This document shows positions 9,001-11,201 of a stretch of DNA of 11,201 bases, piece by piece. The stretch is from a virus, in the UHGV virus genome UHGV-0222504; one strand, 5' to 3'. How positions within the stretch are numbered: position 1 is the stretch's first letter; each line of letters begins with the position of its first letter. Position numbers: made by a program.

Positions 9001-11201
9001 AAATCTGACTTTTGATACCGGGGTTGTTGAATAGGCATTGCCGATTAACATTTGTCCAAAGACAGCAGACCCGCCTTCCAGTTCTTTACCACATATAACA
9101 CTGCTGTTATCAGCGTTGTAAATTATCAACCCTCTACTATTGCAGTAATTCACAAGGGCATCTTTGACTTTATCTTTTGTCGTATTTTGATAAACCCCCT
9201 CAGGTTTTCCTGATTGAGTTTTCTTTATCAATGGTACGGAAGAAGTACAACCTGAAATGATAGTTGCGCTAAGTAATAGTACAGTCATTTTATTCATGTT
9301 TCTTATCCATTGTTAAGGGCATACCTACACAATTATTTTTATTGGAGATGAATAATCAACCGTTTACAATCGTAAAAAATCAAATATGCTGTTAAGAGTG
9401 GTTACTTCGCCACACAACTTAAACCCGCCGCTGAGCGGTTTTTTTGTACCTGTAAACTTGGTGCAGTACAGTAAACACGCTGGTGGTCGTGAATACTGCC
9501 CTTTTATCTTGCTGGCTTTTTAGACAAGAGTTATTGGTATGTCATGTTAACCAGAAGGGAAAAAGACATGCTAAAACAGCAAGATATGACAGAAACCGCC
9601 GCCGCAGTCCTTCATTTCTTACCTGCTGACAAGTGGGTAACGCCACGCATGATGACGAGAACTACCGGAGTAAGCGAAGCCCGGTGCCAGTTAATACTGA
9701 CTCAGTTAGTTCTGGCGGGTCTGGCGAAGGATAACGGCGGGTACGGGAATAAATTCAGACGCTGCCAGTAATGGCGGTTTCCTGCTGTGAAAATGGGCGG
9801 CTGGTGGGTGTTGGTAGCACCTGCCAGCCATTCGCTCATGCTTACTGGTCACAAGCGAACCACGGCCCACTGCTTTAGCGCAAAAGCAGAGTGAGCCTAC
9901 CAGAGTTACGCTTACTGATCCATGAAAAATACTGTAAAAATAAACAGTGTTGATTTAATCAACGCTGATTGCCTGCATTTTATTCAGTCCCTGCCTGATG
10001 ATTCCATTGACCTGATTGTTACCGATCCGCCGTACTTCAAGGTGAAACCCAACGGTTGGGACAATCAGTGGAAAGGGGACGAAGATTACCTTAAGTGGCT
10101 GGACCACTGTCTGGCCCAGTTCTGGCGGGTGTTAAAACCTGCCGGAAGCCTTTACCTGTTCTGTGGGCATCGCCTGGCATCTGATATTGAGATCATGATG
10201 CGTGAACGTTTCAACGTGCTTAACCATATCATCTGGGCGAAGCCGTCCGGACGTTGGAATGGGTGTAATAAAGAAAGTCTGCGCGCATATTTTCCTGCCA
10301 CAGAGCGCGTTCTGTTTGCTGAACATTACCAGGGGCCATATCGCGGCAAAAGTGACGGCTATGCAGCAAAAGAAAGGGAACTCAAACAGCACATAATGGC
10401 ACCGCTGATATCGTATTTCAGGGATGCTCGTGCCGAACTGGGTATAACGGCAAAACAAATTGCCGAAGCCACAGGTAAGAAAAATATGGTTTCCCACTGG
10501 TTTGGTGCCAGTCAGTGGCAGTTGCCGAATGAGGCTGACTATCGGAAGTTACAGGCACTGTTTTCCCGTATAGCGGCAGAGAAGTTTCAGGAACAACAAC
10601 TGGAACAACCACACCACCAGCTGGTGGCATCTTATGATTCACTGAATCGCAAATATTCTGAATTGCTGGATGAGTTTAAATCTCTCCGGCGCTATTTCTC
10701 CGTATCAGTCTCCGTGCCTTATACCGATGTCTGGATGCATAAACCCGTTCAGTTCTACCCGGGGAAACATCCGTGTGAGAAACCGGCGGATATGCTCAGG
10801 CAAATAATCAATGCCAGTAGTCGACCAGGTGATCTGGTTGCTGATTTTTTTATGGGATCCGGTTCCACAATAAAAGCAGCAATGGCGCTGGGGCGTCGGG
10901 CCTTAGGTGTTGAGCTTGAGTCAGAGCGGTTTAACCAGACAGTGAAAGAGATAAACGAGCTGGTGGGGAAATAATCTGGTGGCCACGTCAGGTGGCCTTT
11001 TTATTTCCATTACACAGCACCCGCATCTGCGAGGTGGGGTTATGAAATCCATGGATAAGTTAACAACGGGTGTCGCCTATGGCACCTCAGCAGGTAGTGC
11101 CGGTTACAAGGCCACCTGACGTGGCCACCAGATTATTTCCCCACCAGCTCGTTTATCTCTTTCACTGTCTGGTTAAACCGCTCTGACTCAAGCTCAACAC
11201 C

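What the first reader, a model, noticed from the sequence alone, without database searches (positions are those of the whole stretch)
9331..9446. Candidate ~70-nt small RNA between the lipoprotein gene and the wHTH gene
A plus-strand promoter-like element with an upstream AT-tract (TTGGAG-17-TACAAT, 9342-9370) is followed about 55 nt later by a short GC hairpin and a T7 run (9424-9445). No protein gene lies between them. The same AT-rich region also holds the divergent promoter of the lipoprotein gene.
Basis: inference. Interest (0 to 1): 0.35.

Follow-up and report, generated by a model that had tools for sequence, protein, structure and literature searches.

The report
Phage late promoter and leader terminator
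The "small RNA gene" is almost certainly the phage's Q-controlled late promoter with its built-in stop signal, an ordinary and well-understood switch for turning on lysis and particle genes, whose roughly 49-base terminated transcript is a by-product of that switch.

Summary
The described sequence is present: TTGGAG-17-TACAAT at 9342-9370, and a short GC hairpin plus T7 at 9427-9445. The interpretation needs correcting.

- **Context.** The window is a lambdoid E. coli phage, 99.7% identical to PhiR40_1. The element lies between the antiterminator gene Q (8401-8766, Pfam PF06530, the Q21 family) and the late genes.
- **Homology.** Window 9362-9425 matches the late promoter PR' of the Shiga-toxin phages H-19B, 933W and VT1-Sakai. 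There a late promoter, a qut site and a PR' terminator are annotated, and the transcription start has been mapped.
- **Which promoter.** The conserved promoter is TTTACA-16-TATGCT (9363-9390), starting near 9395-9397. The terminated RNA would be about 49 nt, not 70.
- **Link to Q.** A dyad-symmetric box, TTTACAATCGTAAA (9363-9376), follows every close Q homologue with enough flank (67 of 67 loci), 0.6-3.2 kb downstream. Across 140 loci, six box types track ten Q clusters without exception, which makes the box the probable Q-binding element.
- **Terminator.** A terminator-like hairpin is kept in 64 of 67 variants. The window's allele is weak (-6.3 kcal/mol).
- **StxS.** Only the first 56 nt of the StxS precursor are shared. 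The functional 74-nt StxS part is absent.

This is a new member of a known kind, and of low interest.

The parts
8401..8766 (+). Gene Q, late-gene antiterminator (121 aa from ATG 8401; the open frame starts at TTG 8386)
   Evidence: Pfam PF06530 Phage_antitermQ, E 2.1e-51. PHROG 79, anti-termination protein Q-like. 78-81% aa identity to Q of H-19B, 933W and VT1-Sakai. Matches Q21 structure 6P18, E 7.5e-9.
8809..8837 (+). Terminator-like hairpin GGGGAG..CTCCCC plus ATTTTATTT, between the Q stop and the 3' end of the minus-strand gene
   Evidence: Consensus scan. mEp460_4F5 has a hairpin plus T-run directly after its Q stop, which leaves no room for a promoter there.
8851..9297 (-). 148-aa lipoprotein gene, a cargo insert ('moron') between Q and its promoter
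   Evidence: Lipobox IISGC in the translation. PHROG 3152, unknown function. Replaced by unrelated genes in other phages with the same Q type.
9332..9359 (-). Promoter-like site TTGATT-16-AATAAT, facing the lipoprotein gene
   Evidence: Consensus scan only. Not tested further.
9342..9370 (+).
   Evidence: Present in the sequence. The -35 lies in insert-specific DNA and is absent in L152, which has the same box and downstream element.
9363..9376 (+). Dyad-symmetric box TTTACAATCGTAAA, the probable Q-binding element (QBE); it overlaps the -35 hexamer
   Evidence: Occurs once in the window against 0.06 expected. Present exactly once downstream of Q in 67 of 67 loci with enough flank. Box type tracks Q cluster without exception in 140 loci.
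9363..9390 (+). Late promoter PR': -35 TTTACA (9363-9368), 16-nt spacer, -10 TATGCT (9385-9390)
   Evidence: Consensus scan, 9 of 12. Aligns with the feature 'putative late promoter' of VT1-Sakai and Ss-VASD. A -10-like hexamer is at this position in all 65 variants.
9394..9397 (+). Inferred transcription start (AAGA; most likely A9397, or A9395)
   Evidence: In the Sakai Stx phages the PR' start lies 258 nt upstream of the tR' 3' end (PMC7547250). Counting back in L006 and L092 lands on AAGAG, which aligns with window 9394-9398.
9394..9413 (+). Conserved initial transcribed block AAGAGTGGTTACTTCGCCAC, with the candidate sigma70-dependent pause element (TGG-TTACTT/TACTTC, 9399-9408)
   Evidence: Identical or nearly identical across six Q-box classes. 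VT1-Sakai annotates 'putative Q-utilization' at the position equal to 9404-9411. The pause function is inferred.
9427..9445 (+). Intrinsic terminator: hairpin GCCGC-UGA-GCGGU (9427-9439) and U7 (9439-9445); a weak allele
   Evidence: -6.3 kcal/mol. The homologous hairpin is annotated 'putative rho-independent terminator for pR' transcript' in VT1-Sakai and 'terminator' in Ayreon. A hairpin plus T-run is kept in 64 of 67 variants.
9397..9445 (+). Predicted terminated leader RNA, about 47-51 nt
   Evidence: Inferred from the start and terminator above. The first 56 nt of the StxS precursor align at 84% identity.
9544..9771 (+). First gene of the Q-dependent operon: 75-aa winged-helix-like protein
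   Evidence: ORF. PHROG 331. RefSeq calls the phiP27 homologue a TrmB family regulator.
9922..10974 (+). DNA adenine methyltransferase gene, in the same operon
   Evidence: PF01555, E 2.2e-42.
10981..11006 (+). Second, stronger terminator before the holin gene
   Evidence: Consensus scan. -12.2 kcal/mol. Annotated as a terminator in Ayreon. The holin follows in PhiR40_1.

Best explanation
The element is the phage's late promoter PR' together with its Q-utilisation site and first leader terminator.

**In a lysogen (inferred by homology).** Host sigma70 RNA polymerase starts at TTTACA-16-TATGCT (9363-9390), near 9395-9397. It probably pauses in the conserved block AGAGTGGTTACTTCGCCAC. It then terminates, at least partly, at the hairpin/U7 (9427-9445). 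This releases an RNA of about 49 nt.

**After induction.** The Q protein (8401-8766, Q21 family) binds the dyad box TTTACAATCGTAAA (9363-9376) and loads onto the paused polymerase, making it terminator-resistant. Transcription then runs through this hairpin and through the stronger terminator at 10981-11006. It continues into the winged-helix gene, the methylase gene, and the holin/lysis and structural genes.

**Layout.** The lipoprotein gene is cargo inserted between Q and its promoter. That is why the promoter does not sit directly after Q.

**Basis of each step.**
- Shown here: the homology, the Q family assignment, the Q-box co-occurrence and covariation, and the conservation of the hairpin.
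- Inferred: promoter activity in this phage, the pause, Q binding to the box, and the termination efficiency.
For: 1. **Position.** Q lies upstream on the same strand, and the late genes follow. In the 99.7%-identical PhiR40_1, holin, lysozyme, Rz and terminase come next.
2. **Q family.** Q is PF06530, the Q21 family, E 2.1e-51. The family is defined in PMC9388147.
3. **Homology to a characterised PR'.** Window 9362-9425 aligns at 76.6% with the DNA directly after Q in H-19B, 933W-type phages and VT1-Sakai. It aligns at 85.9% with phage 434B and PA-2-type phages. VT1-Sakai annotates a late promoter, a qut site and a PR' terminator at exactly the aligned positions.
4. **Start site.** The start mapped in the Sakai Stx phages (PMC7547250) falls on the aligned AAGAG.
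5. **Co-occurrence with Q.** Among 80 IMG/VR loci whose Q is at least 92% identical, all 67 with more than 730 nt after Q carry exactly one TTTAC-N4-GTAAA box on the Q strand. The box lies 593-3202 nt after the Q stop, across different inserts and two different transcribed regions.
6. **Covariation.** In 140 loci, ten Q clusters pair with six dyad-box types with no exceptions beyond single-base variants. This holds at Q-to-element distances from 6 to 2462 nt.
7. **Terminator.** A -10-like hexamer is at a fixed position in all 65 variants. A GC hairpin plus T-run starts at +26 to +39 in 63 of 67 variants and further downstream (+68) in one, built from different stem sequences.
8. **Precedent.** Phage 21, the type member of this Q family, has the same compact layout with a terminator ending at +50.
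Against: - No transcript data exist for this phage.
- The promoter matches the consensus only 9 of 12. Such matches are at chance frequency in the window.
- The candidate pause element is imperfect. TACTTC lacks the usual final T, and TTACTT lacks the usual A at position 2.
- The window's hairpin allele is weak (-6.3 against -11.6 to -15.2 kcal/mol in relatives).
- In the Sakai Stx phages the leader was mapped as ending at the second terminator, 258 nt downstream, not at the homologous first hairpin. Termination at this hairpin may therefore be inefficient.
- The Q21 binding element is a tandem repeat between -35 and -10. The box here is dyad-symmetric and lies further upstream, so its role as a Q site is not supported by analogy with Q21.
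- The IMG/VR loci are largely related E. coli prophages and are not independent samples.
Confidence: 0.85

Rival explanations
1. It is an autonomous small-RNA gene. A 70-nt RNA would run from TTGGAG-17-TACAAT (start near 9377) to the hairpin/U7 and act in trans on host or phage mRNAs.
For: The promoter-like site and the terminator-like site are both present. The region is intergenic, and the only ORF in it looks spurious.
Against: - The -35 lies in insert-specific DNA and is not kept where the rest of the element occurs in another context (L152).
- TACAAT is the centre of the Q-linked dyad box. It reads TACGAT or TACGTA in relatives.
- The conserved promoter and the mapped start of the homologues lie 20 nt further downstream.
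- No Rfam family matches.
- The 70-nt fold is no better than shuffled sequence (z -0.51).
Confidence: 0.04
2. It is the PR' leader, and in addition the terminated RNA of about 49 nt works as a trans-acting, Hfq-dependent regulatory RNA, as StxS does in Shiga-toxin phages.
For: StxS shows that a terminated PR' leader of this same Q type can be a regulator (PMC7547250). The RNA would have a 5' hairpin, an A/U-rich linker and a terminator with U7. PR' is expected to be constitutive in lysogens.
Against: - Only nucleotides 1-56 of the 258-nt StxS precursor are shared.
- The 74-nt processed StxS that carries the rpoS seed has no counterpart in the window.
- The fold is not better than shuffles (z -1.24).
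- Conservation of the block is explained by the needs of promoter, pause and terminator.
Confidence: 0.08
3. The hairpin is only a generic terminator marking the left end of the winged-helix/methylase/lysis module. It has no specific tie to the promoter beside it.
For: In phages with other Q types (Ayreon, mEp460, Stx2c and Stx2k phages) similarity to the window starts at 9422, that is at the hairpin. There it follows unrelated plus-strand genes, while their own PR' and first terminator lie further upstream.
Against: In every phage with a Q of the subfamily studied here (window-like, 933W-, cdtI-, mEp460_4F5- and phiP27-like), the hairpin stays within about 30-40 nt of the conserved start region. 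This includes divergent members in which the stem sequence has been replaced. Phage 21 has the same promoter-proximal terminator. This rival describes the modular history and is compatible with the best explanation.
Confidence: 0.03

Closest known systems
PR'-qut-terminator region of Shiga-toxin phages H-19B, 933W and VT1-Sakai (144-aa Q)
   Same: Q proteins are 78-81% identical. The promoter, start region and first hairpin align at 76.6% over 64 nt and 84% over the first 56 transcribed nt. The dyad box is the same apart from one base (TTTACGATCGTAAA).
   Different: In the Stx phages the promoter overlaps the 3' end of Q. Here a 447-nt minus-strand lipoprotein gene separates them. The Stx leader continues to a second terminator at +258 and yields StxS, and that part is absent here. 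The candidate pause hexamer is TACATT there and TACTTC here. The hairpin here is weaker.
Phage 21 PR' cassette (Q21, type member of PF06530)
   Same: Same Q family. Same order of parts: -35, Q site, -10, start, pause element, and a terminator ending about +50.
   Different: Q is only about 33% identical. The Q21 site is a tandem repeat of two 8-bp subsites between -35 and -10. Here the Q-linked box is dyad-symmetric and covers -35 to about -22. There is no detectable DNA similarity.
Lambda PR', 6S RNA and tR'
   Same: Same logic: a constitutive late promoter, a promoter-proximal sigma70 pause, a terminated short leader RNA, and Q-dependent read-through into lysis and structural genes (established knowledge; summarised).
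   Different: Lambda Q belongs to an unrelated protein family (PF03589). The lambda leader is longer. I recall about 194 nt, from my own knowledge.
StxS small RNA
   Same: It derives from the terminated PR' leader of the same Q type, and the 5' 56 nt are homologous.
   Different: The functional 74-nt 3' fragment and its terminator are not present in the window. Hfq binding and targets are unknown here.
DLP12 / phage 434B / PA-2 arrangement (Q - porin gene nmpC/lc on the minus strand - PR')
   Same: Same architecture of Q, a minus-strand cargo gene, then the same promoter element, at 85.9% identity.
   Different: The cargo is a porin rather than a lipoprotein. The box centre is GTAC instead of AATC. 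Some copies of this TTTACGTACGTAAA (434B/DLP12-type) element carry a stem-disrupting change (GCTGG) in the hairpin.

Membership tests
Q-dependent late-gene cassette of lambdoid phages (Q gene, PR', Q site, pause element, terminator, late genes) | A Q antiterminator gene lies upstream on the same strand | tested here: met
   PF06530, E 2.1e-51. PHROG 79. Q21 structure match, E 7.5e-9.
Q-dependent late-gene cassette of lambdoid phages (Q gene, PR', Q site, pause element, terminator, late genes) | A sigma70 promoter lies between Q and the late genes | tested here: met
   TTTACA-16-TATGCT, 9 of 12. It aligns with the annotated late promoter of VT1-Sakai and Ss-VASD. The start mapped in homologues falls 5-7 nt after the -10. 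Activity in this phage was not measured.
Q-dependent late-gene cassette of lambdoid phages (Q gene, PR', Q site, pause element, terminator, late genes) | A Q-binding element at the promoter, specific for the Q allele | tested here: met
   Tested by comparative evidence only. The box is present in 67 of 67 loci with close Q homologues. Six box types track ten Q clusters in 140 loci. Physical binding was not tested.
Q-dependent late-gene cassette of lambdoid phages (Q gene, PR', Q site, pause element, terminator, late genes) | A -10-like sigma70-dependent pause element in the initial transcribed region | tested here: inconclusive
   The invariant block TGGTTACTTCG lies at about +3 to +13 and contains TTACTT/TACTTC. 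Neither register has both the A at position 2 and the T at position 6. The 933W-type homologue has the better TACATT. Pausing is not testable here.
Q-dependent late-gene cassette of lambdoid phages (Q gene, PR', Q site, pause element, terminator, late genes) | An intrinsic terminator lies between the promoter and the late genes | tested here: met
   Hairpin plus U7 at 9427-9445, conserved in 64 of 67 variants. A second terminator lies at 10981-11006.
Q-dependent late-gene cassette of lambdoid phages (Q gene, PR', Q site, pause element, terminator, late genes) | Lysis and structural genes lie downstream on the same strand | tested here: met
   PhiR40_1 annotation: holin, lysozyme, Rz, terminase and portal follow the methylase gene.
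Q-dependent late-gene cassette of lambdoid phages (Q gene, PR', Q site, pause element, terminator, late genes) | Q-dependent read-through of the terminator | not testable with these tools
   This needs in vitro transcription or reporter assays.
StxS small RNA | Sequence of the processed 74-nt StxS (the 3' part of the 258-nt leader, including its terminator) | tested here: not met
   BLAST of the VT1-Sakai leader against the window aligns only nt 1-56. The 3' 75 nt give only 11-12-nt chance matches.
StxS small RNA | Hfq binding and regulation of rpoS and stx1B | not testable with these tools
   No experimental data exist for this phage.
Described small-RNA families (Rfam 15) | A match to a covariance model at or near the gathering score | tested here: not met
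   A permissive scan of the whole window (E up to 1) gives no hit in 9300-9550. The hits are C4 and isrK near 3200-3400.

The most novel reading that the evidence does not exclude
In the large 933W/DLP12/cdtI/phiP27 branch of the Q21 family, Q may recognise a dyad-symmetric box over the -35 region rather than the tandem subsites of phage 21. There would be at least six exchangeable specificity classes:
- TTTACRNNCGTAAA
- ACGCGTACGC
- GCGGTCCGC
- GGAATTCC
- TGTTATAACA
- ATTCGTTACGAAT

All six sit in front of one shared start/pause/terminator module. The Q gene and its promoter can be separated by up to about 3 kb of cargo genes. This would imply a loading geometry different from the solved Q21 complexes.

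A second, less likely, novel reading is that the 49-nt leader is itself a trans-acting small RNA.
Probability: 0.5. Interest if true: 0.45.

Novelty: new member of a known kind. Interest (0 to 1): 0.22.

Why it matters
For this window the result is mainly a correct annotation. The intergenic element is the switch that controls all late genes of the phage. The public records that carry it list either nothing or a spurious small ORF at this spot.

Three points have some wider use:
- In this widespread Q type the late promoter is often not next to Q. It can lie behind inserted cargo genes such as the lipoprotein here or a porin elsewhere, so a search for it next to Q will miss it.
- The strict pairing of Q clades with dyad-box types gives testable candidate Q-binding sites for a Q branch that includes the medically important 933W/H-19B Shiga-toxin phages.
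- The weak hairpin allele suggests that the winged-helix and methylase genes may be expressed at a low level from PR' in lysogens. The stronger terminator before the holin gene would keep lysis off.

Tried and rejected
- **Rfam.** A permissive scan of the whole window found nothing in the region.
- **tRNA/tmRNA scan.** Nothing found.
- **Folding.** The 52-nt, 70-nt and 151-nt candidate transcripts fold no better than shuffles (z -1.24, -0.51 and -1.12). Structure alone does not support an RNA gene.
- **Long-range pairing.** The 151-nt fold pairs the terminator with 9470-9490. It was not significant and I did not pursue it.
- **RNAalifold.** Run on 18 diverse leaders, it recovered only the 5' hairpin, whose arms were fixed by my search pattern. 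It missed the terminator because loop-length differences put the stems out of register in the MAFFT alignment. I replaced it with a per-sequence hairpin/T-run scan.
- **Phage 82 hypothesis.** I first suspected that the Q was phage-82-like, because pause details in PMC5001585 seemed to fit. This was wrong. The Q82 type is the long Q (PF06323), as in wild-type phage 434, with its own TGGTATGTT pause element. The window's Q is PF06530.
- **Absolute start coordinates.** I tried to place the published Sakai start coordinates on NC_002695.2. They are offset relative to that version, so I used the published 258-nt distance to the tR' 3' end instead.
- **Unavailable sources.** The 933W and H-19B primary papers (PMC93574, PMC95105) and the supplement holding the phage 82 template sequences were not held.
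- **Literature on the box.** No held paper describes the Q-binding element of the 933W-type Q. That does not prove it is undescribed.
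Full report
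**1. Observation**

- TTGGAG is at 9342-9347, followed by 17 nt and then TACAAT at 9365-9370.
- A short GC hairpin lies at 9427-9439 and a run of seven T at 9439-9445.

Neither feature stands out statistically.
- Promoter-like matches occur at chance level in the window: 13 found against 11.9 +/- 3.2 in shuffles.
- The hairpin folds at only -6.3 kcal/mol, and 22 of 200 shuffles fold at least as well.
- The same scan lists a second, overlapping promoter-like site, TTTACA-16-TATGCT (9363-9390).

A 45-codon ORF (9386-9523) runs across the terminator. PhiR40_1 annotates a hypothetical protein there. It has no family match. The T-run inside it is 6, 7 or 8 T long in otherwise near-identical relatives, so it is not constrained as coding sequence.

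**2. Context**

The window is 99.7% identical to Escherichia phage PhiR40_1 over the region. In that genome the gene order is as follows.
1. cI, cro, the replication genes and the nin-like genes.
2. Antitermination protein Q.
3. A minus-strand hypothetical gene.
4. The region of the finding.
5. A small gene.
6. A DNA adenine methylase gene.
7. Holin, lysozyme, Rz, terminase and portal.

In the window these parts are as follows.
- Q (8401-8766) is Pfam PF06530, E 2.1e-51. It matches the solved Q21 structures, E 7.5e-9. PF06530 is the Q21 family as defined in PMC9388147.
- The minus-strand gene (8851-9297) encodes a protein with a lipobox, IISGC. It belongs to PHROG 3152, of unknown function.

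The finding therefore lies where a lambdoid phage should have its late promoter, except that a cargo gene sits between Q and it. Directly after Q there is only a terminator-like hairpin (8809-8837). In mEp460_4F5 a hairpin plus T-run follows the Q stop within 6 nt. No promoter can lie there.

**3. Homology to a characterised late promoter**

A sensitive DNA search with 9300-9425 found 350 phage records.
- Window 9362-9425 aligns at 76.6% with the DNA immediately after Q in H-19B, VT1-Sakai, Ss-VASD and many Stx1a and Stx2a phages.
- It aligns at 85.9% with phage 434B, PA-2 and relatives. There a porin gene (nmpC/lc) on the minus strand separates Q from the element.

VT1-Sakai (AP000400) annotates three features whose aligned positions in the window are these.

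| VT1-Sakai feature | Window position |
|---|---|
| Putative late promoter | 9363-9390 |
| Putative Q-utilization | 9404-9411 |
| Putative rho-independent terminator for pR' transcript | 9423-9445 |

Ss-VASD annotates the same promoter as PR'. The window's Q is 78-81% identical to the Q of these phages.

Sy et al. (PMC7547250) mapped the PR' start in both Sakai Stx phages by dRNA-seq, and the tR' 3' end by term-seq, 258 nt apart. Counting back from the tR' T-run in VT1-Sakai and in Sp5 lands on the AAGAG that follows the -10 TATCAT. That AAGAG aligns with window 9394-9398.

The conserved promoter is therefore TTTACA-16-TATGCT. The start is near 9395-9397, and an RNA ending in the U-run would be about 47-51 nt.

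Locus L152 has the same box, -10 and transcribed block behind a different upstream sequence. TACAAT is the centre of the box discussed next.

**4. The element is tied to Q**

I fetched 80 IMG/VR loci encoding a Q at least 92% identical to the window's.
- The 14-bp pattern TTTAC-N4-GTAAA occurs exactly once downstream of Q, on the Q strand, in all 67 loci that have more than 730 nt after the Q stop.
- The 13 loci without it are all cut off within 729 nt.
- In the window the extended form occurs once, against 0.06 expected.
- The distance from the Q stop takes the values 593-598, 1520, 1831, 1878-1879, 2404 and 3202 nt, so the box sits behind different inserts.
- The box is followed by two unrelated transcribed regions. 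One is the window type (AAGAGTGGTTAC..., then the hairpin). The other, as in L061, reads CCCAGAGTGTCAGTTTGTATAAAAACTCTG and has no nearby terminator.

I then scanned IMG/VR for the transcribed block (AAGAGTGGTTACNTNGNCAC). This gave 65 distinct variants, all with the same plan.
1. An A-rich tract.
2. A variable 12-14-bp dyad-symmetric box over -35 to about -22.
3. An A-tract.
4. A -10-like hexamer at a fixed position (TATGCT, TATCAT, TATCGT, TAATCT, TACTGT and others).
5. The conserved block.
6. A hairpin and T-run.

For each locus I extracted the nearest upstream PF06530-type protein and clustered these proteins at 75% identity. This gave ten Q clusters paired with six box types in 140 loci, with no exceptions apart from single-base variants.

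| Q cluster | Loci | Box |
|---|---|---|
| 0 (window, 933W and DLP12 type) | 89 | TTTAC(A/G)(AT/TA)CGTAAA |
| 1 (cdtI type) | 23 | GCGGTCCGC |
| 2 (mEp460_4F5 type) | 17 | ACGCGTACGC |
| 5 (related to cluster 2) | 1 | ACGCGCACGC |
| 3 | 5 | TGTTATAACA |
| 4, 6 and 8 (phiP27 type, sharing the helix GISHTQ(I/V)LKRLQ) | 3 | GGAATTCC |
| 7 and 9 | 2 | ATTCGTTACGAAT |

The Q-to-element distance ranges from 6 to 2462 nt in this set. Physical linkage alone could explain co-occurrence in close relatives. The pairing, however, survives different inserts on one side and different transcribed modules on the other. This is what is expected if the box is the Q-binding element. Binding itself was not tested.

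**5. Terminator**

A per-sequence scan found a GC-rich hairpin followed by a T-run in 64 of 67 variants. It starts at +26 to +39 in 63 of them and at +68 in one.
- Stems have different sequences in divergent members: CCCGC/GCGGG, CCGCC/GGCGG, CCTCGC/GCGGGG, CCCTGCC/GGCGGGG and GGCCTCG/CGGGGCT.
- The three exceptions are copies of the 434B/DLP12-type element (box TTTACGTACGTAAA) with one stem-breaking change (GCTGG).

The window's allele (GCGG-T instead of GCGG-G) is weak. Its energy compares with relatives as follows.

| Hairpin | Energy (kcal/mol) |
|---|---|
| Window, 9427-9445 | -6.3 |
| Relatives of the same hairpin | -11.6 to -15.2 |
| Window, second terminator at 10981-11006, before the holin gene | -12.2 |

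In the Sakai phages the mapped leader ends at the second terminator (+258), not at the homologous first hairpin. Termination at this first hairpin is probably partial. Very short RNAs may also have been lost from those libraries, which is my inference.

Phage 21, the type member of the family, has the same compact arrangement in a curated annotation. The order there is -35, Q site, -10, start, pause element at +2 to +8, and a terminator ending at +50.

In phages with other Q types (Ayreon, mEp460, Stx2c and Stx2k phages), similarity to the window begins at 9422. The hairpin then serves as an internal terminator of the late operon, behind other genes. The hairpin and the downstream genes are thus a shared module.

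**6. Mechanism**

The best-supported reading has two states.
- **In a lysogen.** PR' is expected to be constitutive, as stated for lambda and predicted for the Stx phages in PMC7547250. Transcripts start at about 9397. A sigma70-dependent pause probably occurs in the conserved block. The candidate -10-like element TGG-TTACTT/TACTTC lies at about +3 to +12, and the 933W type has the better TACATT. Transcripts then terminate in part at 9439-9445.
- **After induction.** Q binds the dyad box, loads onto the paused complex and makes it terminator-resistant. For Q21 this is a nozzle on the RNA exit channel (bioRxiv 10.1101/651190). Transcription then reads through both terminators into the late genes.

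What is shown here is the family assignment, the homology, the Q-box pairing and the hairpin conservation. Promoter activity in this phage, pausing, Q binding and termination efficiency are inferred.

The pause element is the weakest step, because neither register of the hexamer has both key bases. The box also differs from the Q21 site, which is a tandem repeat between -35 and -10. The loading geometry may therefore differ from the solved Q21 complexes.

**7. Relation to StxS and the small-RNA idea**

The terminated PR' leader of the same Q type is processed to the 74-nt Hfq-binding regulator StxS in Stx phages. The window shares only the first 56 nt of that 258-nt leader (84% identity). The 3' part that becomes StxS has no counterpart.
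- No Rfam family matches the region.
- The candidate RNAs do not fold better than shuffles.

A trans-acting role for the 49-nt RNA is possible, but nothing here supports it.

**8. Verdict**

The interpretation as a small-RNA gene is only partly right. The unit is the Q-dependent late promoter with its Q site and first leader terminator, homologous to that of H-19B and 933W. It is displaced from Q by a cargo gene.

It is a new member of a known kind, and ordinary for a lambdoid phage. The by-product of some interest is the set of dyad boxes that track the Q clades, which are candidate Q-binding sites.

Noticed in passing
window 3194-3395: Rfam finds a C4 antisense RNA (3308-3395, 82.3 bits), an isrK Hfq-binding RNA (3207-3283, 64.2 bits) and a weak hit to the C4 target a1/b1. 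This resembles a P1/P7-type antirepressor control module inside a lambdoid early region. It lies within the long ORF 2847-3683, which appears to correspond to the 'Rha protein' CDS annotated in PhiR40_1, so that CDS call may be partly wrong.
   Followed up: no
L093-L212 (IMG/VR loci); window 9363-9376: Six dyad-symmetric box types over the -35 region pair one-to-one with ten clusters of Q21-family proteins in 140 loci. Three Q clusters that share the helix GISHTQ(I/V)LKRLQ all have the GGAATTCC box.
   Followed up: yes
L061 8272-8340 and about 30 similar loci: The same Q type and the same box and promoter are followed by an unrelated transcribed region (CCCAGAGTGTCAGTTTGTATAAAAACTCTG). It has a TATAAA -10-like element and no close terminator. 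The first good terminator there is about 1.1 kb downstream, before the holin gene.
   Followed up: partly
L061 6484-6512: Directly after Q in these loci lies GCCAGCCTCCCCAAAGGCTGG plus a T-run. It closely resembles the tR'/StxS terminator of the Sakai Stx phages (GCCAGCCTCCCCCAGTGGCTGGC plus a T-run), although the PR' box lies 1.9 kb further on.
   Followed up: no
window 9427-9445 compared with relatives: The window carries a weakened terminator allele (GCGGT, -6.3 kcal/mol) where most relatives have GCGGG (-11.6 to -15.2). A stronger terminator follows the methylase gene (10981-11006, -12.2). This suggests possible basal expression of the winged-helix and methylase genes in lysogens.
   Followed up: partly
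L093, L103, L177 (434B/DLP12-type box TTTACGTACGTAAA): These copies have a single stem-breaking substitution in the leader hairpin (GCTGG instead of GCGGG). This would fit decay in a defective prophage, which is my inference.
   Followed up: no
L002 (phage Ayreon) 2249-2350: Ayreon has a 250-aa Q of another type. The promoter-like site after it is followed by AACGATGGG, which I recall (own knowledge) as the lambda pause element with its GGG, and by a hairpin very like the one in the window.
   Followed up: no
window 9386-9523: PhiR40_1 annotates a hypothetical protein at this small ORF, and mEp460_4F5 annotates one in the same stretch. The ORF crosses the terminator and contains a T-run of variable length, so it is probably not a gene.
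   Followed up: yes
window 9427-9490: In a 151-nt fold the 5' arm of the terminator and the U-run pair with 9470-9490 (AAACACGCUGGUGG), forming a long alternative helix. It is not significant against shuffles (z -1.12).
   Followed up: no
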